Source of the DNA: Bacteroidota bacterium
Lineage (GTDB): Bacteria > Bacteroidota > Ignavibacteria > SZUA-365
NCBI GenBank assembly: GCA_049663345.1
Contig: JBATDG010000087.1
Span: 33,695 to 97,694, forward strand
Direction: 5' to 3'
DNA length: 64,000 bases
Shown here: piece by piece, positions 12,823 to 52,845 of the stretch
How the letters are laid out: each line of letters begins with the position of its first letter
Numbering within the stretch: position 1 is the stretch's first letter
Translations under genes and position numbers: made by a program
Notes under the pieces: generated by a model
Seen by the model: the letters and a program-made list of their open reading frames with translations, nothing else
What the model was told of the DNA's origin: nothing
Database searches by the model: none

Positions 12823-12860
12823 TAATCGCCTTTGGAACTCCATCATCAATGGCACGCGCT

Positions 12861-25573: not shown

Positions 25574-26989
25574 TTGGGAAACCTGTCCGACGCAGGTGAC
25601 ATCCTGATCGTTGACGATGAGGAAATGATGGGCATCGTGCTGTCCGGCGTATTCGAGGATGCCGGGTTTTCAGTGCGAACCGCCACTAATGGCGAGGCGG
25701 CAATCAAGCTTATCGGTGAACGTTTGCCCGATGCGATGCTGCTTGACATCATCATGCCGGGACTGAGCGGCATGGAAGTGCTCAAACGGATCAAATCCGT
25801 TGATGAGAGCATCCCTGTCATTCTTATGACTGCTATGGCTGGCGTCAGCGGGGCTGTTGAAGCGATGCGCGCCGGTGCCTACGATTACATCGCCAAACCA
25901 TTCCACAATGAGGAACTCCTGCGCATCGTATCCGCCGCCGTTCGGCAGCGTCTCTCGCGCAGCGATTTTATTGCCACCCGGGACGGAGATAACGAACAGC
26001 GTGACCCCATACTCTTTAATATGGGCACCAGTGAGGTTATCATGGAATTGTCCGCGCGCACGCGCCGCGTGGCGAAAAGCAATTTCGATGTTCTTATCAC
26101 AGGGGAAACCGGGACCGGGAAAGAACTCATCGCGCGTTCGATACACGAGATGAGCAGCAGGGGCAATAAGCCCTTCATCGCTATCGACACGGGTGCGATA
26201 CCGGAAGCCCTTCTCGAAAGTGATCTGTTTGGTCATGAGGAGGGCGCGTTTACTGATGCGCGGAATCAGAAGAAGGGGAAGTTTGAACTAGCGCAAGGCG
26301 GCACGATTTTCCTCGATGAAGTCCCCAACATGTCCTGGCAATCTCAGGCCAAACTGCTGCGTGCTCTGCAGGATCGGGCGATTTCCCGTGTCGGTGGAAG
26401 CAAGTCTATTAGCATCGATGTCCGCGTTATCGCGGCGAGCAATTCTGATTTTCAGGATATGATTGATGAAAAGCGATTTCGCGCCGATCTGTTTTACCGC
26501 CTGCGCGAATTCTCTATCCACGTTCCTGCACTGCGCGAGCGCAAAGCCGACATCCCGTTCCTTGTTGACAAATTCGTGCGCATGACAAATCAGGAATTGG
26601 GGAAGAATATCGGGGGCTGCAGCGCCTCAGCGATGGACGCCTTGATGATGTATGATTGGCCCGGAAATGTACGGCAGCTTCGTTCGACAGTTCGCAGCGC
26701 AGTGCTTCAGGCAACCCACATCATTGAGATCGAGCAGCTCGAATTCATGGAGATGTCTGCTGTTGACGGACAAGTACGCTCCGGCGGCGAACTCCCCGAA
26801 CTCGAGAACGGCATGCCGCTGAAGGAGCATGTGAAAAAACATATCGCTCAGATCGAACGGCAAATAATCTATGAAACACTGAAGTCAACCAAGTGGAATA
26901 AGGCAAAGACGGCGCGCGTGCTGCAGATTGCCTACAATACGCTGTTGACGAAGATCGGCGAATACGATCTTCAGAATCCTCACGGTTGA
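25574..26989 (+). CDS. Sigma-54-interaction-domain response regulator (NtrC/Fis family: REC-AAA+-HTH). The sigma-54 contact loop reads GAFTDA
   Basis: REC domain with DIIMPG, Walker A GETGTGKE, ESDLFGHEEGAFTDA and a C-terminal Fis-type HTH. Confidence 0.85.
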   Translation: MGNLSDAGDILIVDDEEMMGIVLSGVFEDAGFSVRTATNGEAAIKLIGERLPDAMLLDIIMPGLSGMEVLKRIKSVDESIPVILMTAMAGVSGAVEAMRAGAYDYIAKPFHNEELLRIVSAAVRQRLSRSDFIATRDGDNEQRDPILFNMGTSEVIMELSARTRRVAKSNFDVLITGETGTGKELIARSIHEMSSRGNKPFIAIDTGAIPEALLESDLFGHEEGAFTDARNQKKGKFELAQGGTIFLDEVPNMSWQSQAKLLRALQDRAISRVGGSKSISIDVRVIAASNSDFQDMIDEKRFRADLFYRLREFSIHVPALRERKADIPFLVDKFVRMTNQELGKNIGGCSASAMDALMMYDWPGNVRQLRSTVRSAVLQATHIIEIEQLEFMEMSAVDGQVRSGGELPELENGMPLKEHVKKHIAQIERQIIYETLKSTKWNKAKTARVLQIAYNTLLTKIGEYDLQNPHG

Positions 26990-27047: not shown

Positions 27048-30000
27048 ATGATGACTTCGGACGCCCCGCTACATATTTTTCTGATCGAGGATGATCCCGA
27101 ACAGGTTGCGTTTCTGAAAGTGACCTTGCGTACGGAGCAGAATTCAGCGTATTCGTTGACCCATGCCGCGAGTCTGGGTGAGGCCAAAGTACTGCTGGCC
27201 GAATTGAAGCCGGATGTGATTCTTCTTGATCTGCATCTTCCCGACAGTGAGGGGCTTAACACTCCGCGCGAAATTCTCGCCCTCGCTCCGCAAATCCCAA
27301 TCATTATCTATAGCGGCAACACCGATGTAGAGCTCGCGATCGAGGCAGTGCGGCTCGGAGCGCAGGACTACCTCCTCAAGGGCGAGGCGCGCGAACCTCT
27401 GCTGTCCCGCGCCATGCGATATGCGATTGAGCGGAAACACACCGCTCTCGAACTCGAGCAGGCGCACACAATTCTCGAAGAACGCAATGCAGCTTTGGAG
27501 ATTGCGCGCAGCGAACTCCGGTCGGAACGAGACATGTTCGTTTCCGGACCGACAATCCTGTTCAGACGCGATTTCACGACGGGCTTCCCGATCACCTTCG
27601 TTTCGCGCAATGTCTCACAATTCGGTTTTCTGCAGCGCGATCTCATGGTGGAAGGATTCCGATATGATTCGCTGGTATTCAGCGATGATCGCGAGGGGTT
27701 TCGCAATCTGCTCACCGTGCGCCTTAGCGAGGGTATCGAGAATGTCGAACAGGAATACCGGATTCTTGACGCGAGAGGCGAAATCGTCTGGCTTCACGAA
27801 GTGGCGCGGATACAGCGCGGCGCAGACGGAGAGCCCATCGCTCAGCTCGCCTATGTTGTCGACATAACCCGGCGGCGTCAGGCTGAAAAAAGCCTTTCTT
27901 CCACACGAAGGCGCTTCGATACTATCCTCGGCAGTATCAATGAGATTGTCTACGAAATCGATATTCACGGCCGGCTTCTGTATATCAGTCCCGCCATCGA
28001 ACGCATTCTCGGCTGGGAAGCAGATGGATTAATCGGTCAGCCATTTGCGGAACTAGTCGTTGAGGAGCAGCGCGAGGGCTGGGAAGAAAGCTTCGCACGT
28101 ATCGTCAGCGGAACGGTCCTTGCCTGCGAATTCCCATTGAACGCGGCCGACGGTCACGAACATGTGTTCCAGATCTCCGCACGCCGGCAAACCGATGGGA
28201 CTCAGGTCCGCTCTATTGCCGGGGTGCTCACCGATATAACCGACCGCAGGGAAATGGAACATGCCATCCGGAATGTTCGCACTCAGACGCAGCAATATCT
28301 TGACATCGCCGAGGTGGTGTTCCTTTCGCTTGATCTGAGCGGGAGCATCACGCTCATCAATAAAAAGGGTTGTCAGGTTCTGGGCTATAATGAACATGAG
28401 CTCGTGGGGCGGGACTGGTTTGACCTCTGTATTCCTGAGCATATACGGGAGGAGACTCGTGCATTTTTCTTCCGCATCGTCGGTGGGGGTGAGACCCAAA
28501 CAGATGTACACGAAAATGACGTGCGTACCAAATCGGGTGAAGAGCGGCTCCTTCGCTGGCACAATTCGTTGATGCACGATAGCCGCGGCGCTGTGATCGG
28601 GATGCTGAGCAGCGGTGAGGATATTACTGATCGGCGCAGAATCGAACTCGAGGCCAAAGGGTCGCAGGAACTGATCGACCTTGCACTTTGGGGGGCGGAT
28701 CTCGGTGCGTGGGAATGGGATATTCACAACGATAGCATCACACTGAATTCTCGTGCCCTGTCGATGTTGGGCTACGAAGCAGGGCAGCTCCCATTGTTCA
28801 CTCAGCTGCGGGAAGAAACTCTTCCGATAGAAGATGTGAGCCGATTGCAGGAAATGATGAATGCTCATCTCGAAGGGCGTTCACCCTTCTATCAGGCTGA
28901 GACCTGGATAATTTGCCGGAGTGGTGAATGGAAGTGGGTCCTCGAACGCGGGAAAGTCGTGGAATATGATACTGCGGGAGCGCCTCTGAGGGTTGCAGGC
29001 ACCTACCTTGATCTGACCGTGAGAAAATATGCTGAGATCGCACTTGAGGATAGTGAAAAGAAATTCCGTCTTCTTGCGGAAAACTCATCCGATATCATCT
29101 GGACGGTAAATGCCGATTTCGAGCTGACCTTCGTCAGCCCGTCAATCGAATTCGTACTTGGCTTTACGCCTGAAGAAATGATGGATACGGACTTCTTTGA
29201 CGCCATCGATGAAGACTTTTTGAGGGATAAAAAAGAGCAATTTATCACAGCCCTACGGAACTCTGCCGCCCGCCCTCCGCACGATCGTACGCTTCGCATA
29301 GAAGCCCCGTTCGTGAAAAAAGATGGAAGCATCCTTTGGGTCGAGGTCGTTGCAACTCCGATCCTCGACCATGGCGGAAATCTCGTGAGCGTTCACGGCA
29401 ATTCCCGCGACATTCATTATCGCAGAATCGCACAGCAGGGACTTGCCGACAGCGAAGGGAAGTACCGTCTGCTTGTGCAGAACCAGACAGATCTTGTCAT
29501 CAAGATGGATCTTGACGGAAAGTTCCTCTTCGTAAGCCCTTCGTACTGCAGGATGTTTGGCAAGACGGAAAACGAACTCCTGCTGCAGCCGTTTTTCCCG
29601 ATGGTGCATGAGGATGACCGTGCGGCCGCACTCGACGCTATGAAGAAATTGTTCGAGGCGCCTTTCACCAGCTATGTCGAACAGCGTGCCCTGACCCAGG
29701 ATGGCTGGCGATGGCTCGGCTGGCAGGACACTGCTGTCCTGAACGACAATGATGAAGTGGTTGCGATCATTGGAGTAGGGCGCGACGTGACCGAGCGCCG
29801 TATGGCAGAACGAGCGCTTATTGATAGCGAGAAGCGCCTCCGTACAGTAATCTCCAACCTTCCAGTCATCATGTTCACGCTGAATAAGGATGGGAAATTC
29901 ACCATGTCGGAGGGTATGGGACTCGAATCCCTCGGACTGACATCAGGGCAGGTCGTGGGTCTTTCGGCATTTGATGTTTATGCTAATAATCCCGACGTAG

Positions 30001-32021
30001 TCGCGGGTCTCCGCCGTGCCATCGGAGGTGAGGCTTTTGTCGCCGCGGTGGAAGTCGAAGGGAAGTCGTTCGAGACATGGTATTCGCCGGTGTTCGGCGA
30101 CGGCGGGGAGGTCGAACACGTCATTGGTGTCGCTGTCGACATCACAAGCCGGAAGAAGACTGAACAGGAGCTCGCCCAGTACCGCGATCATCTTGAAGAA
30201 TTGGTCGAGGCGCGGACACTGGAACTCGAGCGTGCTAATGAGCGGCTGAAGCGATTCCGCTTTGCACTTGACAGCGCGGCCGACAACATCTACATCATCG
30301 ATCCGGAAACGATGAAGTATGTGGATCTCAACGAAAGCGCCGTCGAGGCTCTTGGATATGAACGTGAAGAATTGCTGACCATGGGTCCGTACGACGTGCA
30401 GGTGCATTCCGAAAAACAGGAGCATATGGAAACCTATGCTAAGGTGCGCGGGGGCACTCTCGAGGTCGGGATTTTTGAGACAGAGCATATGAAGAAAGAC
30501 GGCAGCCGCTTCCCTGTCGAGGTGTTTGTCCGCGCCTTCGAATCCGGTGATGCCCGGCTCCTCATCGCAACTGCTCGCGATGTCTCTCGCCGCCGCGCCG
30601 CTGAGCTGGCGCTGAAGGAATCCGAGGCGAAGTATCGCAACGTGTTGGAAAACGCGAATGAAGCCATCATCGTGCTTCAGGATAATCTGCTGCGTTTCTA
30701 CAATTACAAAGTCCTAGAGCTGACAGGTCTCTCTGATGCCGCTCTCAAGGATCTCCCCATCTTCGAATTTGTGCATCCTGATGATCACGCGCTACTTCGC
30801 CGCCAATATCAGGAGAGAGTCCGCGGCGGACTTCTGCCCGAGAGCTACGACGTAAGGATGTACGACAGCAACGGCACGATCAAGTGGATGGAAGTGCGCG
30901 ATGTGCTCATCACGTGGGACGGCAAGCCCGCGACACTGAATTTCTTCAACGACATCACAGCCAGGAAATATGCGGAGGATTACATCCGCTTCCAGGCTTC
31001 ACTGCTGAGCATCGTTCGCAACTCGGTTGTGGCACTTGACCAATCGGGCCGCGTTACCTATTGGAATTCCTTCGCGGAGACACTTTTCGGGTGGACCGCA
31101 CAGGAAGTCCAGGGCAGGAAGCTGAATGAATTCCCTACCTTCGGTCCCGAGTTCGAAACCGAGCTGCTTCCCTCAGTGAGAGCTCGCGGTCATTGGGAAG
31201 GCGAAGGCGAACTGCAGCGCAGCGATGGCACAATGCTCTCCGTGTATTCGATGTGGACCGTCATTATTCAGGACGATCAGCTGCGCGGCTACGTGGGAAT
31301 CGGTATGGATCTGTCGGAGAGGAAAAAGCTCGAGAAGGAATTGCTGCAATCCCAGAAGCTCGCCTCGCTCGGCATTCTATCCGAAGGCATTGCGCATGAA
31401 TTGAGGAATCCGCTAGGTTATGCCAGTTCCGCCGCCCAGCTCCTGATATCAAAAAAGGATCTGACCGAGGAGCAGCGGAAGAAATACAGCACAGTGATCC
31501 ACACAGGCGTTGACCGGGCGAATAAAATCGTCGAAAACCTGCTTCTCATCGGCAAGCCCAAGGGGCAGCTGATGAAAAAATCGCTCAATCTGATTGACAC
31601 TGTTCGTGAAGCGCTTTCCCTGATCTCCTCGCATCACAACGCCGCTGGCGTTCACATCGAGAAGCAATTCGAAGCAAAGGAACTCCTCGTGCTGGGAAAC
31701 AGGGAGATTCTCATACAACTCTTTTACAACCTGTTCACCAACGCTCTCGATGCCATGGCTGGCAGCGGAACGCTGCGGATTTGCGGTGAGCAGAAGAAAG
31801 GGCATGTCTATATCCGCGTCAGCGATACTGGTCCCGGTGTTCCCGAGCATATCGTAGAAAACATTTTCGATCCCTTCTTTACGACCTCCAAAACCGACAA
31901 AGGCGTCGGGCTTGGCCTCACGCTCTGCTATTTCATCATGGACGACCATGAAGGCCGTATCGAGCTGGATACCACAGCAGAAACAGGTGCAGCGTTCATT
32001 TTAATCTTCCCGGCCGTGTGA
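27048..32021 (+). CDS. Giant hybrid sensor histidine kinase (1657 aa): N-terminal receiver, at least 8 PAS/PAC repeats, HisKA and HATPase_c
   Basis: REC (LLDLHLPD), repeated PAS-like blocks, H-box LASLGILSEGIAHELRNPL, and N/G boxes near the C-terminus. Confidence 0.85.
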   Translation: MMTSDAPLHIFLIEDDPEQVAFLKVTLRTEQNSAYSLTHAASLGEAKVLLAELKPDVILLDLHLPDSEGLNTPREILALAPQIPIIIYSGNTDVELAIEAVRLGAQDYLLKGEAREPLLSRAMRYAIERKHTALELEQAHTILEERNAALEIARSELRSERDMFVSGPTILFRRDFTTGFPITFVSRNVSQFGFLQRDLMVEGFRYDSLVFSDDREGFRNLLTVRLSEGIENVEQEYRILDARGEIVWLHEVARIQRGADGEPIAQLAYVVDITRRRQAEKSLSSTRRRFDTILGSINEIVYEIDIHGRLLYISPAIERILGWEADGLIGQPFAELVVEEQREGWEESFARIVSGTVLACEFPLNAADGHEHVFQISARRQTDGTQVRSIAGVLTDITDRREMEHAIRNVRTQTQQYLDIAEVVFLSLDLSGSITLINKKGCQVLGYNEHELVGRDWFDLCIPEHIREETRAFFFRIVGGGETQTDVHENDVRTKSGEERLLRWHNSLMHDSRGAVIGMLSSGEDITDRRRIELEAKGSQELIDLALWGADLGAWEWDIHNDSITLNSRALSMLGYEAGQLPLFTQLREETLPIEDVSRLQEMMNAHLEGRSPFYQAETWIICRSGEWKWVLERGKVVEYDTAGAPLRVAGTYLDLTVRKYAEIALEDSEKKFRLLAENSSDIIWTVNADFELTFVSPSIEFVLGFTPEEMMDTDFFDAIDEDFLRDKKEQFITALRNSAARPPHDRTLRIEAPFVKKDGSILWVEVVATPILDHGGNLVSVHGNSRDIHYRRIAQQGLADSEGKYRLLVQNQTDLVIKMDLDGKFLFVSPSYCRMFGKTENELLLQPFFPMVHEDDRAAALDAMKKLFEAPFTSYVEQRALTQDGWRWLGWQDTAVLNDNDEVVAIIGVGRDVTERRMAERALIDSEKRLRTVISNLPVIMFTLNKDGKFTMSEGMGLESLGLTSGQVVGLSAFDVYANNPDVVAGLRRAIGGEAFVAAVEVEGKSFETWYSPVFGDGGEVEHVIGVAVDITSRKKTEQELAQYRDHLEELVEARTLELERANERLKRFRFALDSAADNIYIIDPETMKYVDLNESAVEALGYEREELLTMGPYDVQVHSEKQEHMETYAKVRGGTLEVGIFETEHMKKDGSRFPVEVFVRAFESGDARLLIATARDVSRRRAAELALKESEAKYRNVLENANEAIIVLQDNLLRFYNYKVLELTGLSDAALKDLPIFEFVHPDDHALLRRQYQERVRGGLLPESYDVRMYDSNGTIKWMEVRDVLITWDGKPATLNFFNDITARKYAEDYIRFQASLLSIVRNSVVALDQSGRVTYWNSFAETLFGWTAQEVQGRKLNEFPTFGPEFETELLPSVRARGHWEGEGELQRSDGTMLSVYSMWTVIIQDDQLRGYVGIGMDLSERKKLEKELLQSQKLASLGILSEGIAHELRNPLGYASSAAQLLISKKDLTEEQRKKYSTVIHTGVDRANKIVENLLLIGKPKGQLMKKSLNLIDTVREALSLISSHHNAAGVHIEKQFEAKELLVLGNREILIQLFYNLFTNALDAMAGSGTLRICGEQKKGHVYIRVSDTGPGVPEHIVENIFDPFFTTSKTDKGVGLGLTLCYFIMDDHEGRIELDTTAETGAAFILIFPAV

Positions 32022-32113: not shown

Positions 32114-32175
32114 CCGTATGCATCGGTAGCAGAGAGACGACCGGGCTAGTCCGAAAGCACTATTCAATTCATTCC

Positions 32176-32195
32176 CTATGCAGATCCCTGCATAG
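32176..32195. promoter_or_regulatory. Perfect 8-bp inverted repeat CTATGCAG-ATCC-CTGCATAG inside a motif (CAATTCATTCCCTATGCAG) shared with the paralogous site at 34788..34835. It is a candidate operator
   Basis: Read directly. The paralogous intergenic region carries an expanded 16-bp palindrome built on the same TGCAG core. Confidence 0.5.
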
Positions 32196-32403
32196 TTTTT
32201 CAGTGCGCTGCATACTGCGAAGATTAACATTTTGTAAGATTCGTGCAGCATCATCATATGGATAACTGCTCCGATTTCCTTTCAGTTTTCAACCGTTGCT
32301 TTAGTGTTCGGCTCCTATCCTGTTGATTGACAACAGATCCGCATCACGGCAAGCAGGTCTAAATCCCCTATTTCAGGGGCAATTCCCCCCACATTGTGAA
32401 TTA

Positions 32404-32419
32404 TGGCACGATTTGTGAA
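32404..32419 (+). promoter_or_regulatory. Sigma-54-like -24/-12 promoter candidate (TGGCACGATTTGTGAA). The -24 box is perfect and the -12 box is degenerate
   Basis: TGGCACG sits about 55 nt upstream of the start codon at 32476. The paralogous position at 35014 has a full consensus. Confidence 0.4.
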
Positions 32420-32475: not shown

Positions 32476-34263
32476 ATGAAAAATCAGATACCGATTGGTA
32501 AAACAATTATCCTTGCAATTACACTATGCATGTTCGGATTCGGGACGCAGGCGAGTGCAGCAACACGGACTTGGTCCGCTTTTGCGGCTACCACTTCATG
32601 GGGGACTGCCTCAAATTGGGTTGAGAATGCAGTCCCAGCTTCTGGTGATGACGTTGTTTTCCTTAATTCCGCTACTGTGGTACTCGAGAGTGCGACTCAA
32701 ATCGGTACATTGACACTTTCCGCTGGTGCGGACGTCGGCTTCACCGCGAACGGCCTGCTAACCATCACAGGAACGCTTACCTTGGGTGCGGGATCAGAGA
32801 TCAATCTTGGGAATGGAACAGCCTCCTACCCGCTGCAATTAAATGGAAATATCCTTTTTGCTGATGGCAACAGTGCATCGGATCCTACTAGAATCTACTC
32901 TTCAGTCATCCCTTGGAAGCTTATCAAAATCAGCAGTGCTTCTCACATCTCCATGGGAGGAATTGCGAACGCTTACTTTGGTGATCATACGACGACGTTG
33001 ATCCAGCTAAATGCACAGCCATTCACTTCGGATGTTCGATTTGAGGGTAATCTTCAATTCACTACGACAAACAACATTCTGCTTGGGGCGAATAACTTAT
33101 ATCTGGGCAAGTCTTGCGAACTCACAGTTACTGCGGTATTCCCTAGTGGTGATGGATTTATTGCGACTGACGGTACCGCAGCAACTCCGCAAGGGACTGT
33201 GCGCCGTCAGTTTGATGCTGTAGCCGATTCATTTTATTTCCCTGTTGGCCCTGTCGGTGGACGAATGTCGCCGATCCGCATCAAAATTATTCCACCATCA
33301 ACTAGTGCTATCTTTACATCCGCTTCACCCTGGCCGTATATCTCTGTCCGCTGTTTGTTAAATTCGAGCGGATCGACAGGCGGACATCCGATGAATTTTG
33401 ATAATTCAAGAATCTGGGTGTATTGGCCTGTGAAGGGCGTCGGGATTTCGGAGCCTGCTTATCTTTCAGGCCGAATGTACCTCCATACGAATTATCGTAG
33501 CGGAGATCCTAAAATCTATTCTGCTCGTTGGACTCCGAACTACGAAGACCTCGGTTCGCTTGGAATATGGGATTTGACTGGCTCCTTACCCGGAACGACA
33601 ACAGGGAATACTCGGGAGGTGCCCTTTTCTGGATGCCCGGGTTTCGGAGACTTTAATATTGGAACAGGAATTGCCGGCGATCCTCTTCCCGTCGAACTCA
33701 CTTCCTTCAGCGCCCGCTACATTGATCGTTCGGTGCGGTTGAACTGGAACACAGCGACGGAGCTGAATAACTACGGCTTCTCGATCGAGCGTTCGCAGGA
33801 CAATGAGACATGGGAAGAAGTCGGCTTTGTGGAAGGCTACGGCACTTCGCTTAGTCCTAAGAGCTACACTCATACGGACATGCTGACGGATGACCTCGCG
33901 AAGGTTCCGCAGCTGGCCTATCGTCTGCGTCAGATCGATCGTGACGGCACCACGGATTACTCGAATATCGTGTTTGTGAAGACGGGCACATTGCCCGCGG
34001 GCGTAGAAATGTACGCTGCATATCCGAATCCCTTCAACCCCTCCACGACGCTGAGCTTTACGATTCAGGACCCTGCGACTGTGAATCTGAAGGTGTACAA
34101 TACCTTCGGTCAGGAAGTCGCAACCCTGCTGAGCAGCAGTGCGATGGATGCGGGCCTGCACACGGTCTCCTTTAATGGAGAGCAGCTCCCGAGCGGCGTG
34201 TACATGGCAGTGCTGGAGGCGAACGGTACGCTGCAGCAGCAAAAGTTTGTGCTCAACAAGTGA
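32476..34263 (+). CDS. Adhesin-like secreted protein: signal peptide, beta-helix-like N-terminal repeats, conserved pre-CTD module and a T9SS C-terminal sorting domain
   Basis: Signal peptide MKNQIPIGKTIILAITLCMFGFGTQASA. N-terminal TRTWSAFAATTSWGTASNWVENAVPASGDDVVF (autotransporter-passenger-like repeat). LNWNTATELNNYGFSIERS module. C-terminal YPNPFNPSTTLSFTI...GVYMAVL tail. Confidence 0.75.
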   Translation: MKNQIPIGKTIILAITLCMFGFGTQASAATRTWSAFAATTSWGTASNWVENAVPASGDDVVFLNSATVVLESATQIGTLTLSAGADVGFTANGLLTITGTLTLGAGSEINLGNGTASYPLQLNGNILFADGNSASDPTRIYSSVIPWKLIKISSASHISMGGIANAYFGDHTTTLIQLNAQPFTSDVRFEGNLQFTTTNNILLGANNLYLGKSCELTVTAVFPSGDGFIATDGTAATPQGTVRRQFDAVADSFYFPVGPVGGRMSPIRIKIIPPSTSAIFTSASPWPYISVRCLLNSSGSTGGHPMNFDNSRIWVYWPVKGVGISEPAYLSGRMYLHTNYRSGDPKIYSARWTPNYEDLGSLGIWDLTGSLPGTTTGNTREVPFSGCPGFGDFNIGTGIAGDPLPVELTSFSARYIDRSVRLNWNTATELNNYGFSIERSQDNETWEEVGFVEGYGTSLSPKSYTHTDMLTDDLAKVPQLAYRLRQIDRDGTTDYSNIVFVKTGTLPAGVEMYAAYPNPFNPSTTLSFTIQDPATVNLKVYNTFGQEVATLLSSSAMDAGLHTVSFNGEQLPSGVYMAVLEANGTLQQQKFVLNK

Positions 34264-34376: not shown

Positions 34377-34691
34377 ATGCAAATGGGAATCGATCAGCGG
34401 AGCAGAGTTATAATGGAGATACCGTTTTCGTTTTCGCAGTATGCGTATCCGTTGAACCCAAGTGCGACCGTGAGCTTTACCCTGGAAGAACAACAGGAAG
34501 TCTCCTTGAGGATTTATAACACGTTCGGACAGGTAGTGCACACGCTCTACGAAAACGTTCAGATGAAAGCCGGATACCATGAATTGAGGCTCTACGGCGA
34601 AACCTTCCCCTCAGGTGGATGCTACGCCAGGCTTCATACAAAAAATGGAGTTCAGCAGCGCACATTGGTGCTGAGCACCGACAACAACTGA
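34377..34691 (+). CDS. CTD-only minigene: a free-standing T9SS C-terminal sorting domain (104 aa) with no signal peptide and no cargo domain
   Basis: The whole ORF matches the Por-tail (YAYPLNPSATVSFTL...GGCYARL). It is about 80% identical to the second minigene at 37051..37365, and both ORFs are intact. Alternative start M13 (34413). Confidence 0.55.
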   Translation: MQMGIDQRSRVIMEIPFSFSQYAYPLNPSATVSFTLEEQQEVSLRIYNTFGQVVHTLYENVQMKAGYHELRLYGETFPSGGCYARLHTKNGVQQRTLVLSTDNN

Positions 34692-34736: not shown

Positions 34737-34766
34737 AAAAAAGTCCGCCGCAAGCGGGCTTTTTTC
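34737..34766. terminator. Bidirectional rho-independent terminator
   Basis: A-run, stem AGUCCGC/GCGGGCU with loop CGCAA, then a T-run. Confidence 0.6.
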
Positions 34767-34801
34767 TTGTTACAGGGTGGAGGTATGCAATTCATTCCCT
34801 A

Positions 34802-34835
34802 TGCAGTGGATTGCATATCTATGCAATCCACTGCA
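34802..34835. promoter_or_regulatory. Perfect 16-bp inverted repeat TGCAGTGGATTGCATA-TC-TATGCAATCCACTGCA, preceded by the shared CAATTCATTCCCTATGCAG motif. It is a candidate operator
   Basis: Read directly. Confidence 0.5.
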
Positions 34836-35013
34836 TGCTATTTTCATTAAGATCACATATAAATAATCACGGGTGCGATTTAGGAAAAAGATGCTATATC
34901 TTAAATTACCAGTTGGAGGAAGCTGGCTATCTCGTTGTTTAGCTTTATCTAGCCGCTCATCTCATGAGGGCGTCAATGAGGACAAAGCATATCTTCAATA
35001 GAACGGATACTTT

Positions 35014-35029
35014 TGGCACGTTTTATGCA
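35014..35029 (+). promoter_or_regulatory. Sigma-54 -24/-12 promoter (TGGCACGTTTTATGCA), with the GG and GC dinucleotides at consensus spacing
   Basis: Matches TGGCAC-N5-TTGCA at every position except one. It lies 60 nt upstream of the start at 35090. Confidence 0.6.
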
Positions 35030-35089
35030 TTTGTTAAGATCAAATACGAATAGACGTGATGCATTTCAGTAAGGCAAGAAATACTAACC

Positions 35090-36891
35090 ATGCAGAAATA
35101 TAGACTGTTTGTGAAAATCGGCCTGCTGGCGGCAATCCTTTTCTATATGGGACTCGGATCTGACGCCTTCGCTGTCACCCGGACCTGGGTAGGTGTCGGA
35201 CTTGGCAATTGGAACACTGCTCTCAACTGGAGGCCTAGCAGCGTCTCGGGTATTACCGGAAACACCGGTGATGCCGTGATTATTAACACCGTCTCGACGA
35301 TTACCATGAATGCTTCTTCAAACATCACGATCGCATCATTGCCCATTTCTGCGTCGAGTGTTGGACTCATTTCGGATAAAAAGATAACCACAGGGTCATT
35401 GACGGTTTCAGGTTCACTTGTTCTCAGCTATGTGAGTGCTGGAGGTGCGGCGAACAATATTTTTGATATCACCGGTGCAATGAGCCTTACTGCTCCGGTA
35501 TTATCTCTCGCTCGGGTTCCTGGGTGAGTACGGATGTCAAGATAAATATCGGCAGGAGAGGTACAGGCACAATAACCATGGCGGCGATTGCGAATAATTA
35601 CATCGCCTACCATGTCAACACTAGTATTGCTCGCAAACCTGTCCTGCTTTCCGATGTGAGATTTGAAGGAGACATTAATCTGCCTTCAGGAATTTCTCTT
35701 GGCACTGATGACCTGTATCTAGGGATCAACGCAGACGTGCTTACTCCGAATGCTGAAATCGGTGACCCAGGGAACTGCATCGAAGTTTCCGGCGGGAATA
35801 CAACTCCCTCCGGTGTTGTACGCAAACAGTATACTGCCGTAAATGACGCGTTCACCTTTAATGTGAGTCCCGGTACCGGCCGGTTGTCGCCCATCACGAT
35901 CAAGGTCATCAGCCCGACGCCATCCTCCTCATTTACAAGTGCTGTTCCCTGGCCGCATATCTTTGTCCGCGTCGTTCTCAATAATGGTGGAAACGGCGGA
36001 CACCCCGCGAATCAGCAGTCGCAAAAAGTCGGGGTTCACTGGCCGGTTAAAGGCTACGGAATCAACACTCCGGTATATTTCTCCGGTGTAATGACTTCCC
36101 ATAACAACTACAGGAACGGATCAGCTAACGATCTGTATTCAGCCCGCTACGCTCCAAGCTACGAAGATAACCTTTTTAATAGCGGTTGGGACCTCACCGG
36201 AACACAGCAAGTCACGACTACGAGCGGTGACCTTCGAAGCGTCCCGTTTAACGGCTTCCCCGGCTTTGGTGATTTCACCATCGGTTTTGGAGATCCCTTT
36301 GGCGGCGACCCTGTACCCGTCGAGCTCACTTCCTTCAGCGCACGCTATATCGATGGTTCGGTTCGCTTGAACTGGAATACCGCGACCGAGCTTAATAACT
36401 TCGGCTTCGCCATCGAGCGTTCGCAGGATTCGAAGAACTGGGAAGAAGTCGGCTTCGTGCAGGGCTACGGAACTTCCAGCAGCCCGAAGAGCTATTCGCA
36501 TACCGATGTGCTTACGGACGACCTTGCACGCACTCCGCAGCTCGCTTACCGTCTGCGTCAGATGGATCGCGACGGCACAATTGATTACTCGAACATCGTT
36601 TTTGTCAAAACGGGCGAACTGCCCGCCGGCGTCGAACTTTACGCTGCCTATCCGAATCCCTTCAACCCCGCAACTACGATCAGCTTTACTGTCAAGGAGT
36701 CTGCGAACGTAAACCTGAAGGTGTACAACACCTTCGGTCAGGTAGTCGCGACCCTGCTCAGCAACAGCTCAATGGATGCCGGCCTGCACACGATGTCGTT
36801 CAACGGAAATGACCTTCCGAGCGGCGTGTACATGGCAGTGCTTGAGGCGAGCGGTGAACTGCAGCAGCAGAAGCTTGTGCTCAACAAGTGA
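35090..36891 (+). pseudogene. Paralogue of cargo gene 32476..34263. It is split by a frameshift near 35520 into ORFs 35090..35527 (signal peptide plus N-terminus) and 35524..36891 (beta-helix, pre-CTD module, T9SS CTD)
   Basis: The two ORFs jointly align along the full length of the 604-aa paralogue (145+455 aa). The frame changes from phase 2 to phase 1. This could be a genuine pseudogene, a sequencing error or programmed slippage. Confidence 0.55.
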
Positions 36892-37050: not shown

Positions 37051-37365
37051 ATGGAGCTGGGAATGGAATCGCGGAACAGAGAAAAGATGGATATTCCGTT
37101 TACATTTTCGCAGTATGCGTATCCGTTGAACCCGAGCGCAACTCTGAGTTTCACCCTTGACGAAGCACAGGAAGTGTCGCTGAAAATTTACAACATGTTC
37201 GGACAGGTGGTGCGTACGCTCTACGAAAGGGTTCAGATGAAAGCCGGGTACCATGAATTGAGGCTCTATGGAGAGACCTTTCCGGCCGGAGGTTGTTACG
37301 CGCGGCTCCACACAACAAAGGGAGTTCAGCAGCGCACGTTGATGCTGAGCACCGAGAATTCCTGA
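37051..37365 (+). CDS. CTD-only minigene 2 (104 aa, free-standing T9SS C-terminal sorting domain)
   Basis: AGGAAAG ribosome-binding site 7 nt upstream of the ATG. The sequence FSQYAYPLNPSATLSFTL...GGCYARL is about 80% identical to 34377..34691. Confidence 0.55.
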   Translation: MELGMESRNREKMDIPFTFSQYAYPLNPSATLSFTLDEAQEVSLKIYNMFGQVVRTLYERVQMKAGYHELRLYGETFPAGGCYARLHTTKGVQQRTLMLSTENS

Positions 37366-37412: not shown

Positions 37413-37456
37413 AAAAAAAGTCCGCCGTACGCAGTTTGCCGTAGGCGGACTTTTTT
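37413..37456. terminator. Bidirectional rho-independent terminator
   Basis: A7-GTCCGCC...GGCGGAC-T6. Confidence 0.7.
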
Positions 37457-37529
37457 CTTACGGTTGCTGATGTGAATTCGGAGTTCCCTATATTATGTAC
37501 GGAGTACCTAACGGAAGCAGCGCCGCAAC

Positions 37530-38912
37530 ATGCCGGAAAAAGAGAAAATTGATGTCCTGATTGTCGATGATGAGGAGCAGATCTGTTTCGTGCTCACTCA
37601 TCTGCTTAAAGTGCATGGCTATGGCTCACGCATAGCGCCCCGCGGAGACCGTGCACTGCGGATGATTGAGGATCAGCGCCCGGATCTCATTATCATGGAT
37701 ATTCGGATGCCGGGAATGAGCGGCTTTGATGTGCTCGAACGTATCCGGGAGTTTGATACAGATGTTCCTGTAATCCTGATGACAGCCCTGCCGGGGGTGC
37801 GTGATGCAGTCCACGCAATGAAGGCGACGGCTTTCGACTACATTGCAAAACCATTCGACAATAACCACATGGTCGGAACAGTTGAACGCGCACTTAGTGT
37901 TGCAGCAGACCTGCGCCGGAATGAAAAATATACAGACCGGTCGCCGGAGCCGCTTCACCCGCTGTTCGCGGCTATGGGCAGCAGCCTGGCCGTACGAAGA
38001 CTTGCGCGTGAAAGCGGACGAATCGCGAATTCTGCTAATCCGGTAATGATCATTGGAGAAATCGGAACAGGCAAGCGCCACCTCGGAAAAATTCTTCATA
38101 CACTCAGTGAACGCCAGGGATCCTTTCTCAACATCGATTGCACAGGCGCTAGCGAATTGATCCTGCGGCAGGAACTGTTCGGTTCCGCTATCGGAACCGG
38201 GCACCGAGGGAAGCTTGAACTGGCGGATCAGGGCACGCTTCTTCTTGATGAGGTTTCAGAGATTCCGTGGACGTTCCAGGAAATCCTCTCCGAAGCCCTG
38301 CATCAAAAGGAATTCTCCGCACCAGCCAGCGAAGAGATGATCCCGATTGCATGCCGACTTCTTTTCGCTTCGAGTATTGCACCGGATAGAGGTATCGATG
38401 GCAACTTCCTGACGCCTCGTTTCCGTGAGCTTTTCGGAGAAGCGATCATCGAAGTGCCGCCGCTCCGGGAACGGCATGAGGACATCCCCATCCTCGCTCT
38501 GGAATTTCTCCAGGATGCGAACAGGGAGCTGGGGCGAAATATGGTAGTGATCTCGGATGCCGCACTCGAAAAGTTGGTTTCCTATCATTGGCCTGGAAAT
38601 GTGCATCAGCTTAAATCCACGATTCGGCGAGCCACTCTGACCTCCAAGGATACTATCGGGATCGATGACATCGATCTCCCGATTTCTCACCACGATGCAA
38701 CGATGGATGACGGTATTGCTGCAAGCGTCGCTGTCGCCGGCGCTCCGCTGAAGGAACAAGTGAAGCGGCATATTGCCGAGGTCGAAAGGCAGCTCGTCTT
38801 TGAAACACTGCGGCAAACTGGCTGGAATAAAGCCCAGGCCTCAAGACTTCTGGGAGTTACGTATAAAACATTATTGAAAAAAGTCAGCGATTATGGCCTC
38901 GAACGACAATAA
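37530..38912 (+). CDS. Sigma-54-interaction-domain response regulator homologue (REC-AAA+-HTH) whose GAFTGA loop is deleted or degenerate
   Basis: REC (DLIIMDIRMPG), Walker A GEIGTGKR and a Fis-type HTH. The segment equivalent to ESELFGHEKGAFTGA reads QELFGSAIGTGHRG. Confidence 0.8.
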   Translation: MPEKEKIDVLIVDDEEQICFVLTHLLKVHGYGSRIAPRGDRALRMIEDQRPDLIIMDIRMPGMSGFDVLERIREFDTDVPVILMTALPGVRDAVHAMKATAFDYIAKPFDNNHMVGTVERALSVAADLRRNEKYTDRSPEPLHPLFAAMGSSLAVRRLARESGRIANSANPVMIIGEIGTGKRHLGKILHTLSERQGSFLNIDCTGASELILRQELFGSAIGTGHRGKLELADQGTLLLDEVSEIPWTFQEILSEALHQKEFSAPASEEMIPIACRLLFASSIAPDRGIDGNFLTPRFRELFGEAIIEVPPLRERHEDIPILALEFLQDANRELGRNMVVISDAALEKLVSYHWPGNVHQLKSTIRRATLTSKDTIGIDDIDLPISHHDATMDDGIAASVAVAGAPLKEQVKRHIAEVERQLVFETLRQTGWNKAQASRLLGVTYKTLLKKVSDYGLERQ

Positions 38913-38948: not shown

Positions 38949-40016
38949 GTGAAAAAGAAAATTCCACAAATTCCCGTGCAGCTCGAACAGCTGCTTCAAA
39001 TCCTTCCTGACGCCGCGTACATTCTCGATGGCGCGGGAATTATTCTCTATGCAAATCCAGCCGTCCACAGGCATACCGGATGGGAATCAGCCCAGCTGGT
39101 CGGTCAGTGCGTCGCTGATTCGCTGCTTTTTGCGCTCCCGTTTCGTTCGTCACTCATGGGCAGCCTCCTCGAGCAAGGAGTGTGGGAGGGTGAATCCGAG
39201 CGGATCCGCCCCGATGGCAGTCTCAACACAGTCCAGGCGCTTTGGCAGGGTCTCCCGGATCCGGATGGGGCCGCAAGATTCATCGGCATAGATCGGGACA
39301 TCTCGGAACTCCGCACACAGGAGCTTGAACTACAGCAGTGCCGCAAACTCGCAAAGATCGGCATCCTCTCTGAAGGTATCGCACACGAATTGCGGAATCC
39401 GCTGAGCTACGCGCTTTCCGCCGCACAGCTTCTCAACGAAGATACGCTGCCGGAGGAAGTGCGCCAGAAATGTGTTCAAACCATCACAATGGGTGTAAAA
39501 AAAGCTGGACTGATTGTCGAAAACATGCTTTCGCTCGGTAGGCCACAAACACAGATTACACGGCAGCGAGTCAACATCGTGCTCGTTCTCGCAGAGGCTA
39601 TTGAAGCGGCCTCATCGCATGCGAACTATTCCGCTGTCCGTATTTTTCAGCGTCTTCCCGGCGAAACATTATTCGTCTCTGGTAATCACGATATGCTTGT
39701 TCAGGTTTTTCATAACGTCATCACCAATGCCCTGAATGAAATGCCGAACGGCGGCAGCATTACGGTGAGCGGGGAAAATAGCACTGATAGTATTCGGATA
39801 TCTGTGTCTGATACGGGCCCCGGCATACCTGAGGAGCATATCGACAAGCTCTTCGATCCGTTTTATTCAGCGTCTTCGTCCGGTACAGGCACCGGTCTGG
39901 GACTGACGCTCAGCTACTTTATCATGAAAGAGCATGCGGGAAGTATCGAAGTGGAAGCGCACCCGGGTTCGGGTGCAACATTTGTACTGACTTTCCCCGG
40001 GTTCAACGAATCGTAA
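38949..40016 (+). CDS. Cytoplasmic PAS sensor histidine kinase
   Basis: A PAS-like N-terminus, H-box LAKIGILSEGIAHELRNPL and HATPase_c motifs (DTGPGIPEEHIDKLFDPFY..GTGLGL). Confidence 0.85.
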   Translation: MKKKIPQIPVQLEQLLQILPDAAYILDGAGIILYANPAVHRHTGWESAQLVGQCVADSLLFALPFRSSLMGSLLEQGVWEGESERIRPDGSLNTVQALWQGLPDPDGAARFIGIDRDISELRTQELELQQCRKLAKIGILSEGIAHELRNPLSYALSAAQLLNEDTLPEEVRQKCVQTITMGVKKAGLIVENMLSLGRPQTQITRQRVNIVLVLAEAIEAASSHANYSAVRIFQRLPGETLFVSGNHDMLVQVFHNVITNALNEMPNGGSITVSGENSTDSIRISVSDTGPGIPEEHIDKLFDPFYSASSSGTGTGLGLTLSYFIMKEHAGSIEVEAHPGSGATFVLTFPGFNES

Positions 40017-52701: not shown

Positions 52702-52845
52702 AGTTAATGGATTACCGGGAACCTGGCACAAGCCGGCAACAGGCACATTATCCGATATACGGGATGAATAGGCGCGGGTTGCACCGATAATATAGACAAT
52801 CACCGGCTGTTTACGAAGGAGGGAGTTGCCTGCGCAACCGGATGT

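What the first reader, a model, noticed from the sequence alone, without database searches (positions are those of the whole stretch)
34788..35029. A palindromic operator motif plus a consensus sigma-54 promoter upstream of cargo gene 2
A 19-nt motif CAATTCATTCCCTATGCAG is shared with the cargo-1 leader. Here it runs into a perfect 16-bp inverted repeat (TGCAGTGGATTGCATA-TC-TATGCAATCCACTGCA, 34802..34835). This lies about 180 nt upstream of TGGCACGTTTTATGCA (35014..35029), which matches the -24/-12 sigma-54 consensus at 15 of 16 positions and sits 60 nt before the ATG. A distant palindrome plus a sigma-54 promoter is the classic arrangement for a bacterial enhancer-binding protein. The flanking NtrC-type regulators are the obvious candidates.
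Basis: partly seen in the sequence, partly recalled or inferred. Interest (0 to 1): 0.6.

Follow-up and report, generated by a model that had tools for sequence, protein, structure and literature searches.

The report
Sigma-54 promoter with upstream enhancer
This is a conserved sigma-54 promoter with a far-upstream array of activator-binding sites that most likely switches on genes for secreted surface proteins in an uncultured bacterium, which is a textbook arrangement newly documented in this lineage.

Summary
The sigma-54 match alone is at chance level in 64 kb. Comparison with relatives makes it convincing. Twenty leaders of the homologous T9SS cargo genes, from the window and 13 related metagenome-assembled loci, carry the same ~54-bp upstream element. 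In 18 of the 19 where the downstream DNA is held, the best -24/-12 match lies 190-239 bp downstream, 49-96 nt before the ATG.

The conserved element reads cTATKCAAYYCAYTCCC-TATKCA-N6-TGCATA-nn-nnTGCA-N6-TGCATA. The 19-nt shared motif is the most conserved part of the element.

The sites closely match the experimentally verified E. coli AtoC enhancer. The upstream regulator RR1 is NtrC/AtoC-like, carries a GAFTDA loop, and sits next to a 1657-aa PAS kinase. This pair precedes the cargo array in all 11 loci where the upstream DNA is visible, so RR1 is the likely activator. RR2 lacks the GAFTGA loop and cannot activate sigma-54.

A rival reading, ARG-box-like sites, is unlikely but not excluded. 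No binding or transcription data exist, and rpoN itself was not seen.

Verdict: a real, ordinary enhancer-dependent promoter, a new member of a known kind.

The parts
34784..34801 (+). Leader 2, 'site 0': TATGCAATTCATTCCCTA.
   Evidence: TATKCA and TCCC are invariant in 20 leaders. Part of that invariance is imposed by the search pattern used for the leaders found.
34800..34817 (+).
   Evidence: 27.1 bits. Position 7 is a purine in 20/20 leaders and position 12 a pyrimidine in 19/20.
34820..34837 (+). Leader 2, site 2: TATGCA-ATCCAC-TGCATG, the right arm of the palindrome. Its centre lies 20 bp from the centre of site 1.
   Evidence: (23.4 bits).
34928..34937 (+). Leader 2, mid-element TATCTCGTTG, 86 nt upstream of TGGCAC. 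It is a candidate site for an architectural (IHF-like) protein. That role is inferred.
   Evidence: the same motif lies at a fixed 86-88 nt in 8 leaders, with background 5e-5 per nt; on the minus strand it shows 2 mismatches to the IHF consensus.
35014..35029 (+). Leader 2, sigma-54 -24/-12 promoter TGGCACGTTTTATGCA. The predicted start is near 35040 (inferred).
35090..36891 (+). Cargo gene 2. The protein has a T9SS C-terminal sorting domain. The gene is split by a frameshift near 35491 and has no clear Shine-Dalgarno sequence.
37051..37365 (+). Small ORF 2 (104 aa), a CTD-like orphan. It is probably co-transcribed with cargo 2 and is followed by a terminator at about 37415-37459.
   Evidence: (D2, D18).
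32161..32214 (+). Leader 1 enhancer. Site 0 is at 32161-32178, site 1 at 32177-32194 (TATGCAGATCCCTGCATA) and site 2 at 32197-32214 (TTTTCAGTGCGCTGCATA).
32316..32325 (+). Leader 1 mid-element TATCCTGTTG, 88 nt upstream of TGGCAC. Read on the minus strand with three flanking bases (32316-32328) it is AATCAACAGGATA.
   Evidence: 1 mismatch to WATCAANNNNTTR.
32404..32419 (+). Leader 1 sigma-54-type promoter TGGCACGATTTGTGAA. The -12 element is TGA rather than TGC.
32476..34263 (+). Cargo gene 1 (595 aa from the ATG that follows GAGGAAA). The protein has a signal peptide, a beta-helix, an FN3-like domain and a T9SS CTD.
   Evidence: (P0001, 595 aa).
34377..34691 (+). Small ORF 1 (104 aa), a CTD-like orphan. 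The terminator at 34742-34768 closes unit 1.
25574..26989 (+). RR1, an NtrC/AtoC-like response regulator (REC, AAA+ with GAFTDA, Fis-type HTH). It is the proposed activator.
27048..32021 (+). HK1, a 1657-aa hybrid histidine kinase with REC, about 8 PAS domains, HisKA and HATPase. It is the proposed sensor partner of RR1.
   Evidence: Synteny.
37530..38912 (+). RR2, an EBP-like response regulator that lacks the GAFTGA loop. It is not a sigma-54 activator, but it may be a second DNA-binding input.
38949..40016 (+). HK2, a PAS histidine kinase and the probable partner of RR2.

Best explanation
Each cargo gene in this locus has its own enhancer-dependent sigma-54 promoter.

Proposed mechanism. RNA polymerase carrying sigma-54 binds TGGCACG-N4-aTGCa (35014-35029 for cargo 2; 32404-32419 for cargo 1) as a closed complex that cannot open on its own. 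About 215-230 bp upstream lies an array of 18-bp sites: TATKCA-N6-TGCATA twice, 20 bp centre to centre, preceded by a conserved TATKCAAYYCAYTCCC extension. This array is the docking platform for RR1, the NtrC/AtoC-like response regulator encoded upstream. The adjacent 1657-aa multi-PAS hybrid kinase phosphorylates RR1. RR1 then oligomerises on the array, reaches the promoter by DNA looping, and uses ATP hydrolysis and its GAFTDA loop to remodel sigma-54. The AT-rich intervening DNA and a conserved mid-element about 87 nt upstream of the promoter may assist the looping. Transcription starts near 35040. The transcript covers a secreted beta-helix / FN3 / T9SS-CTD protein plus a small CTD-like ORF and ends at a strong terminator.

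Shown here: the sequences, their conservation, their positions, the domain content of the regulators, and the similarity to the AtoC enhancer.

Inferred: which protein binds, looping, the transcription start, dependence on sigma-54, and the signal.
For: - Enhancer conservation. Seventeen cargo leaders from the window and seven protein-retrieved loci were examined. Fourteen show the same ~54-bp element (site 0 plus sites 1 and 2). The other three show only partial or degraded site matches (anchors corrected). The cargo proteins are 36-60% identical.
- Promoter conservation. All 17 leaders have their best TGGCAYG-N4-nTG[C/T] match 49-96 nt before the ATG. The remaining leader DNA is unconserved, with 40% mean column identity.
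- Genome-wide specificity of the element. A pattern for site 0 plus site 1 found only 10 places among 185,579 species genomes. Eight are this same locus type.
- Local specificity of the sites. PWM hits of at least 15 bits occur only in cargo leaders across about 200 kb.
- Specificity of the promoter motif. Thirteen of 16 TGGCAYG-N5-TG matches in ~400 kb (both strands) are in cargo leaders.
- Linkage to the regulator. RR1-HK1 lies directly upstream of the first cargo leader in all 11 loci where that DNA is visible.
- RR1 is a full EBP. It has REC, an intact AAA+ domain and an HTH_8 domain. GAFTDA is conserved in all six orthologues, and this natural variant is accepted as functional (PMC4641369).
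- Experimental precedent. The verified AtoC enhancer of E. coli is TATGCA-GAAATT-TGCACA g TGCGCA-ATTTTC-TGCATA, upstream of TGGCAC-N5-TTGCT (PMC3118216; sequence read). This is the same half-sites, the same 10-bp core spacing, a mirrored pair, and the same purine/pyrimidine at positions 7 and 12. AtoC is also the best NCBIfam match of RR1.
Against: - No experiment of any kind supports this.
- rpoN was not found in any sequence held, so the presence of sigma-54 in this organism is assumed.
- The sigma-54 match is at chance level within the window alone.
- The -12 element of leader 1 is TGA, not TGC.
- The enhancer lies farther upstream (190-239 bp to the -24 element) than in the E. coli ato promoter (121 bp), and the distance is not cleanly phased.
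- The RR1 recognition helix (AYNTLLTKI) differs from that of AtoC (SRRALMYKL), so the motif similarity may be family-level or coincidental.
- The same 18+2+18 pattern serves as ArgR boxes in another lineage.
- Cargo 2 itself is frameshifted.
Confidence: 0.78

Rival explanations
1. The array is bound by RR2, either instead of RR1 or in competition with it. RR2 is the GAFTGA-less paralogue encoded downstream. It would act as an anti-activator or a second signal input at the same enhancer. This is not exclusive of the main explanation.
For: - RR2 keeps its REC and HTH_8 domains. Its DNA-binding region is the part most similar to RR1 (YKTLLKKV against YNTLLTKI).
- It flanks the cargo array in the window, L001, L002, L003, L006 and L009.
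- The array has three parts, more than one dimer pair needs.
Against: - L005, L007 and L008 keep the array and the promoters without an adjacent RR2.
- A sigma-54 promoter still needs a GAFTGA-type activator, which RR2 cannot be.
- The N-to-K change sits at a position corresponding to a base-contacting residue of NtrC (from my own knowledge of NtrC), which suggests a different specificity.
Confidence: 0.12
2. The two 18-bp palindromes are ARG-box-like operators for an ArgR-type hexamer or another non-EBP factor. That factor would modulate the promoter, and the real activator would bind elsewhere or act from solution.
For: - The geometry, two 18-bp imperfect palindromes 2 bp apart, is that of ARG operators (PMC3293853).
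- A metagenome scan with the site 1 + site 2 pattern returned about 50 copies of an argC/argR intergenic operator that matches it exactly. ArgR and ArgC were confirmed by Pfam.
- ArgR is an activator at the E. coli ast operon.
Against: - Positions 7 and 12 are purine and pyrimidine as in AtoC sites, not T and A as in canonical ARG boxes. The centres are not A/T-rich.
- There are no arginine-related genes in the window or the related loci.
- The element is strictly linked to RR1-HK1.
- The site 0 extension has no ARG-box counterpart.
- No other palindromic element is available in the leaders for the EBP to bind.
Confidence: 0.06
3. The palindrome acts as a nucleic-acid hairpin, either a back-up intrinsic terminator or attenuator after the upstream operon, or a cruciform, and is not a protein-binding site.
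For: - The terminator scan flags 34800-34837 plus CTATTTTCAT, and 32176-32195 plus TTTTT.
- The RNA fold is -28.5 kcal/mol with z = -6.4.
Against: - A strong canonical terminator already lies 33 nt upstream (34742-34768).
- In relatives the half-sites are conserved in sequence rather than covarying. The long stem is absent (whole-site mirror 10-15 of 18), and no T-run follows.
- Rfam finds nothing.
Confidence: 0.02
4. The transcription start comes from a sigma-70/sigma-A-type promoter, and the TGGCAC match is fortuitous.
For: One sigma-70-like match (TTGGCA-16-TAAGAT, 9 of 12) overlaps the site at 35013-35040.
Against: - That is fewer matches than in shuffles (1 against 3.8).
- The -10-like hexamer is not conserved in other leaders, whereas TGG...TG is invariant across the 15 aligned leaders.
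Confidence: 0.02

Closest known systems
E. coli AtoS/AtoC - atoDAEB enhancer and sigma-54 promoter
   Same: - Two mirrored sites of the form TATGCA-R-N4-Y-TGCRCA placed side by side. TGCA cores lie 10 bp apart within a site.
- The sites sit upstream of a TGGCAC-N5-TTGC promoter.
- The regulator is an REC-AAA+-HTH_8 response regulator encoded next to its kinase and its target.
- AtoC is the best NCBIfam match of RR1.
   Different: - RR1 is not an AtoC equivalog: 408 bits against a cut-off of 714, 40% identity, and a different recognition helix.
- The gap between sites is 2 bp rather than 1.
- There is an extra conserved site 0 / TCCC extension.
- The enhancer is 190-239 bp rather than 121 bp from the -24 element.
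- The loop is GAFTDA rather than GAFTGA.
- The targets are T9SS-secreted beta-helix proteins, not fatty-acid catabolism genes.
NtrC - glnAp2 (enteric bacteria), the archetypal enhancer-dependent promoter
   Same: - Two adjacent dyad sites with TGCA-containing half-sites far upstream of a -24/-12 promoter.
- A phosphorylation-driven oligomer acts by DNA looping (established knowledge).
- The recognition helix of RR1 (YNTLLTKI) resembles that of NtrC (RNTLTRKL). This comparison is from memory and was not tested.
   Different: The half-site sequence and spacing, the sensor (a giant multi-PAS hybrid kinase), the regulon and the lineage are all different.
ARG operators (ArgR/AhrC)
   Same: Two 18-bp imperfect palindromes 2-3 bp apart. 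A soil-lineage argC/argR operator matches the site 1 + site 2 pattern exactly.
   Different: The position is far upstream of a sigma-54 promoter rather than overlapping a promoter. Positions 7-12 do not fit T-wwww-A. There are no arg genes nearby.
GAFTGA-less EBP descendants (V. cholerae VpsR, R. capsulatus NtrC): comparison for RR2 only
   Same: An EBP architecture with a small deletion that removes the sigma-54-contacting loop. PMC3162934 describes such activators as having become sigma-54-independent.
   Different: RR2 sits next to an active paralogue and beside sigma-54 promoters. Its targets are unknown.

Membership tests
Sigma-54 (-24/-12) promoter | GG and GC doublets exactly one helical turn apart within TGGCAC-N5-TTGCW | tested here: met
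   Leader 2: TGGCACGTTTTATGCA matches 11 of 12 specified positions. Leader 1 has GG but TGA at -12.
Sigma-54 (-24/-12) promoter | Correct strand and distance in front of a gene, conserved in relatives | tested here: met
   The match lies 49-96 nt before the ATG in all 17 leaders of the window and seven protein-retrieved loci, and also in L009, L011, L014, L018 and L072. TGG and TG are invariant in the 15-leader alignment. Thirteen of 16 motif matches are in cargo leaders.
Sigma-54 (-24/-12) promoter | The organism encodes sigma-54 (rpoN) | not tested
   There is no rpoN in the window or in the 140 held sequences (the window and 139 fetched loci, ~0.74 Mb; RpoN-box search). The only indirect support is an intact EBP.
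Sigma-54 (-24/-12) promoter | Transcription start about 12 nt after the GC, dependent on rpoN and on an EBP | not testable with these tools
   This needs 5'-RACE or dRNA-seq and genetics.
Bacterial enhancer (UAS) for an EBP | Dyad-symmetric sites about 80-250 bp upstream of the -24/-12 element, usually in pairs | tested here: met
   There are three 18-bp sites, and site 1 starts 190-239 bp upstream of TGGCAC.
Bacterial enhancer (UAS) for an EBP | A cognate EBP with an AAA+ domain, a GAFTGA-type loop and a DNA-binding domain | tested here: met
   RR1 matches Sigma54_activat at 2e-66 and has HTH_8 and GAFTDA. It is adjacent in 11 of 11 loci. RR2 does not meet this feature because the loop is deleted.
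Bacterial enhancer (UAS) for an EBP | Physical binding of the EBP to the sites | not testable with these tools
   This needs EMSA, footprinting or ChIP.
AtoC (NCBIfam NF008469 equivalog) | Score above the curated cut-off | tested here: not met
   The score is 408.4 bits against a cut-off of 714, and identity to E. coli AtoC is 40%. RR1 works like AtoC but is not AtoC.
ARG box operator | An 18-bp palindrome wnTGAAT-wwww-ATTCAnw (or the TGCAT variant) in tandem pairs 2-3 bp apart | tested here: inconclusive
   The geometry and the outer positions fit. Positions 7 and 12 and the A/T-rich centre do not fit.
ARG box operator | Association with arginine genes or argR | tested here: not met
   None is present in the window or the related loci.
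Intrinsic terminator | A G+C-rich hairpin followed by a T-run, conserved as a structure | tested here: not met
   The scan flags it in the window, but in relatives neither the stem nor the T-run is kept.

The most novel reading that the evidence does not exclude
The cargo array would be controlled by a matched pair of paralogous response regulators acting on one three-part enhancer. RR1 (GAFTDA, active AAA+) would be the sigma-54 activator. RR2 (GAFTGA loop deleted, degenerate AAA+, similar HTH) would be a competing or co-binding anti-activator fed by a second kinase. The invariant TCCC / site 0 extension would be what distinguishes the two. Together with the orphan CTD-like ORF after every cargo gene, this would define a previously undescribed regulatory module for T9SS surface proteins in an uncultured Ignavibacteria-like lineage.
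Probability: 0.12. Interest if true: 0.5.

Novelty: new member of a known kind. Interest (0 to 1): 0.3.

Why it matters
This gives a clean, comparatively validated example of sigma-54/EBP control of type IX-secreted surface proteins in an uncultured Bacteroidota/Ignavibacteria-like lineage. It fits the idea that sigma-54 governs the cell exterior (PMC3162934).

It also yields a usable binding-site model: TATKCA-R-N4-Y-TGCATA in pairs 20 bp apart, plus a TCCC-containing extension. The promoter model is TGGCAYG-N4-nTG[C/T]. Both could be used to define the regulon in these genomes.

The finding is useful for annotating these genomes, not a conceptual advance. Two side observations are more curious than the promoter itself. 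One is a GAFTGA-less paralogue beside an active EBP. The other is an orphan CTD-like ORF after every cargo gene.

Tried and rejected
1. My first genome-wide pattern had one N too many and matched nothing, not even the fetched loci. I corrected it and repeated the scan.
It returned mostly 10-bp satellites, because the pattern is 10-bp periodic, plus argC/argR operators. Only one true family member (L072) appeared. The scan therefore said nothing about a wider regulon, but it produced the ArgR rival.
3. Two genome hits, L013 (labelled Sulfuricurvum) and L016, have no RR1, cargo or sigma-54 motif. I treated them as unrelated.
4. The third exact TGGCACG-N5-TG, at 12850, abuts the ATG of an alpha/beta-hydrolase lipoprotein. 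I dismissed it as chance.
5. Rfam found nothing beyond terminator look-alikes.
6. The sigma-70 scan was below shuffle level.
7. The TTCCCTAT upstream of RR2 looked like a relic of site 0. Relatives show instead a conserved TATATT -10-like box.
8. The IHF consensus gives only a partial match to the mid-element.
9. The search for rpoN in all held sequence was negative, and a literature search on Ignavibacterium plus rpoN was empty.
11. There is no clean helical phasing between the enhancer and the promoter, so I make no phasing claim.

Full report
**What is there**

- The 19-mer CAATTCATTCCCTATGCAG occurs twice, at 32165 and 34788, against 0.01 matches expected from shuffles.
- At 34801-34817 / 34820-34836 there is a perfect 17+17-nt inverted repeat with a 2-nt gap.
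- TGGCACGTTTTATGCA lies at 35014-35029, 60 nt before the ATG at 35090.
- The sigma-54 match is not significant within the window alone. At <=1 mismatch 2.12 matches are expected, and 82 of 100 shuffles have at least one. The case therefore rests on context and conservation.

**Context**

The surrounding genes, in order on the + strand, are:

| Gene | Coordinates | Description |
|---|---|---|
| RR1 | 25574-26989 | REC, sigma-54-interaction AAA+, HTH_8 |
| HK1 | 27048-32021 | 1657-aa hybrid kinase with about 8 PAS domains |
| cargo 1 | 32476-34263 | carries a T9SS C-terminal sorting domain |
| small ORF 1 | 34377-34691 | 104 aa |
| cargo 2 | 35090-36891 | carries a T9SS C-terminal sorting domain |
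| small ORF 2 | 37051-37365 | 104 aa |
| RR2 | 37530-38912 | EBP-like response regulator |
| HK2 | 38949-40016 | PAS histidine kinase |

The cargo-plus-small-ORF units are a ~2.62-kb tandem duplication that includes the leaders (families D1, D2, D6). A strong terminator closes each unit (34742-34768). The palindrome therefore lies in untranscribed spacer DNA, 33 nt past a terminator.

**Re-reading the palindrome**

Aligning the two leaders shows the repeated unit to be TATGCA-N6-TGCATA.

- Leader 2 has two copies, at 34800-34817 and 34820-34837.
- Leader 1 has a perfect copy at 32177-32194 and a degenerate one at 32197-32214.
- In both leaders the copies are 20 bp apart centre to centre.
- Leader 1 has TGGCACGATTTGTGAA at 32404, 56 nt before its ATG.

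**Comparative test**

Full-length homologues of the cargo protein (36-60% identity) exist in metagenome-assembled genomes labelled Bacteroidota or Ignavibacteria. They often occur two or three per contig.

I retrieved seven loci by protein identity, independently of the DNA motif. They show the same synteny: a short-chain dehydrogenase gene, RR1, HK1, and then two or three cargo-plus-small-ORF units. RR2-HK2 follows in some loci but not in L005, L007 or L008.

Seventeen cargo leaders from the window and these seven loci were examined.

- Fourteen share a ~54-bp element, cTATKCAAYYCAYTCCC-TATKCA-N6-TGCATA-nn-nnTGCA-N6-TGCATA. The other three show only partial or degraded site matches (anchors corrected).
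- All 17 have their best TGGCAYG-N4-nTG[C/T] match 49-96 nt before the ATG.

The DNA between the two elements is otherwise unconserved. In the alignment of 15 leaders, mean column identity is 40%, and the invariant columns cluster in the element and at TGG...TG.

A pattern for the left part of the element was scanned over one genome for each of 185,579 species and found only 10 places. Eight are this same locus type, and two have no RR1, cargo or promoter. Six further leaders came from these two scans (L009, L011, L014, L017 and L018; L072), giving 20 in all. In these six, some invariance is imposed by the search pattern.

Other specificity measures:

- PWM hits of at least 15 bits occur only in cargo leaders across about 200 kb.
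- Thirteen of 16 TGGCAYG-N5-TG matches in ~400 kb (both strands) are in cargo leaders.
- RR1-HK1 directly precedes the first cargo leader in all 11 loci where that DNA is visible.

The 19-mer is not just a duplication scar. It is the most conserved stretch of the enhancer: a left half-site, the invariant TCCC, and the start of site 1.

The perfect long palindrome is specific to this copy. Sites 1 and 2 carry mirror-image spacers here (GTGGAT and ATCCAC, 6 of 6). Across 20 leaders the spacers mirror each other at only 3.15 of 6 positions on average, against 1.5 for random sequence. Whole-site mirror identity is 10-15 of 18 elsewhere. The half-sites are conserved in sequence rather than by covariation. 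This argues for protein recognition and against a hairpin.

**The regulators**

RR1 and its five orthologues are 72-80% identical. All carry GAFTDA in place of GAFTGA, with intact Walker motifs. GAFTDA is a known natural variant that is considered competent, for example DVU2106 of Desulfovibrio vulgaris (PMC4641369). For VfmH its effect is called unknown (PMC10714721).

RR2 and its four orthologues lack the loop altogether through a 6-residue deletion, and they have a degenerate arginine-finger region. RR2 therefore cannot be the sigma-54 activator. It keeps REC and a similar HTH, and it has its own TATATT -10-like box. Such deletion derivatives are known to be sigma-54-independent (PMC3162934).

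**Closest known system**

The verified AtoC enhancer of E. coli is an inverted 40-bp palindrome of two 20-bp sites upstream of the sigma-54-dependent atoDAEB promoter (PMC3118216). I read it from an E. coli genome.

- The enhancer sequence is GC-TATGCA-GAAATT-TGCACA-G-TGCGCA-ATTTTC-TGCATA-GC.
- TGGCACTCCCCTTGCT lies 121 bp downstream of the first TATGCA.
- atoD starts 45 nt after the promoter.

The half-sites, the 10-bp core spacing, the mirrored pair and the purine/pyrimidine at positions 7 and 12 are the same as here. In the present family, position 7 of site 1 is a purine in 20 of 20 leaders and position 12 a pyrimidine in 19 of 20.

AtoC is also the top NCBIfam match of RR1, but well below the equivalog cut-off (408 against 714 bits). 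Identity is 40%, and the recognition helices differ. RR1 therefore works like AtoC but is not AtoC.

**Rivals**

- **ARG-box-like sites.** A metagenome scan for sites 1 + 2 alone returned many copies of an argC/argR intergenic operator that matches the pattern exactly. ARG operators are two 18-bp palindromes 2-3 bp apart (PMC3293853). Several points argue against this reading: positions 7-12 do not fit, no arg genes are nearby, the element is strictly linked to RR1-HK1, and the leaders offer no other candidate site for an EBP.
- **Hairpin or terminator.** The window sequence suggests this, but relatives do not conserve the stem or the T-run, and Rfam finds nothing.
- **Overlapping sigma-70-like promoter.** The match is below shuffle expectation and is not conserved.

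**Other anatomy**

A mid-element, TATCYCNTTG, sits at a fixed 86-88 nt upstream of TGGCAC in 8 leaders of the window's sub-lineage. Close variants occur in leader 1 and L002. The background rate of the motif is 5e-5 per nt. On the minus strand it partly matches the IHF consensus, with 1 mismatch in leader 1 and 2 in leader 2. The spacer DNA is AT-rich: 62% in leader 2 and 56% in leader 1, against 46% for the window. Both features suit a looping aid, but that role is inferred.

**What is regulated**

A model of cargo 1 (mean pLDDT 87.6) shows three parts:

- an FN3-like domain;
- the T9SS sorting domain.

The product is therefore probably a surface adhesin or a glycan-binding protein.

Cargo 2 in this window is interrupted by a frameshift near 35491 and lacks the GAGGAG ribosome-binding site of its orthologues. 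The best-looking enhancer and promoter may thus drive a decaying gene. Alternatively, the assembly has an error.

**Limits**

- No rpoN was found in the window or in any fetched locus.
- The genome scans were exhausted.
- Binding, looping, the transcription start and the signal are all inferred.

**Verdict**

This is a real and well-conserved enhancer-dependent sigma-54 promoter of an ordinary kind, newly documented for T9SS cargo genes in this lineage.

Noticed in passing
window 35470-35530 and 35060-35090: Cargo gene 2 changes reading frame near 35491; orthologues align in frame 1 up to there and in frame 3 afterwards. It also lacks the GAGGAG Shine-Dalgarno sequence present in all orthologues. 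It is either a pseudogene or an assembly error, yet it has the best-scoring enhancer and promoter.
   Followed up: partly
window 34377-34691 and 37051-37365; also L001-L008: Every cargo gene is followed by a 92-130-aa ORF. It has no signal peptide and only weak similarity to the T9SS C-terminal sorting domain (TIGR04183, E ~4e-3), making it an orphan CTD-like protein of unknown role. It is conserved in all related loci.
   Followed up: partly
window 37530-38912 (RR2) and orthologues in L001, L002, L003, L006: RR2 is an EBP-like response regulator whose GAFTGA loop is deleted and whose arginine-finger region is degenerate. One orthologue also has a broken Walker B motif (LLLGNV). It sits beside an active paralogue and next to sigma-54 promoters.
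   Followed up: partly
window 25574-26989 (RR1), residues about 224-229: The sigma-54-contacting loop reads GAFTDA, not GAFTGA, in RR1 and all five orthologues examined.
   Followed up: yes
window 34928-34937 and 32316-32325: A conserved mid-element, TATCYCNTTG, lies at a fixed 86-89 nt upstream of the -24 element. It is tied to the promoter rather than to the enhancer and only partly resembles an IHF site.
   Followed up: partly
L020, L025-L027, L029, L047 and about 45 further metagenome loci: In a soil lineage, the intergenic region between divergent argC and argR carries TATTCA-N6-TGCATA-tt-TATGCA-N6-TGCATA. These are tandem ARG boxes that match the enhancer pattern of this finding exactly.
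   Followed up: partly
window 12850-12863: A third exact TGGCACG-N5-TG match directly abuts the ATG (12862) of an alpha/beta-hydrolase with a lipoprotein signal peptide. This leaves no room for a leader, so it is a chance match.
   Followed up: yes
window 37470-37500; L006 about 12385-12420: Upstream of RR2 there is a conserved ...TTCCCTATATTATG... / ...TTTTCTATATTTAG... box. It looks like a -10 element (TATATT) of a housekeeping-type promoter, not like a relic of the enhancer.
   Followed up: partly
L002 12242-12400: A ~21-bp tandem repeat (ccgccgaaggctgatccgc...) fills the spacer between the second small ORF and RR2 in one relative.
   Followed up: no
L007 9118-9211 (minus strand): Two further TGGCACGGGCTGTG[T/C] motifs lie 79 nt apart on the minus strand. 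They are inside a 1.7-kb stretch between HK1 and the first cargo leader that has no convincing ORF and contains short repeats.
   Followed up: no
window 47613-49373 and 50578-52803 (minus strand): There are two neighbouring GAF-SpoIIE (PP2C-type) phosphatase genes, suggesting partner-switching signalling elsewhere in the window.
   Followed up: no
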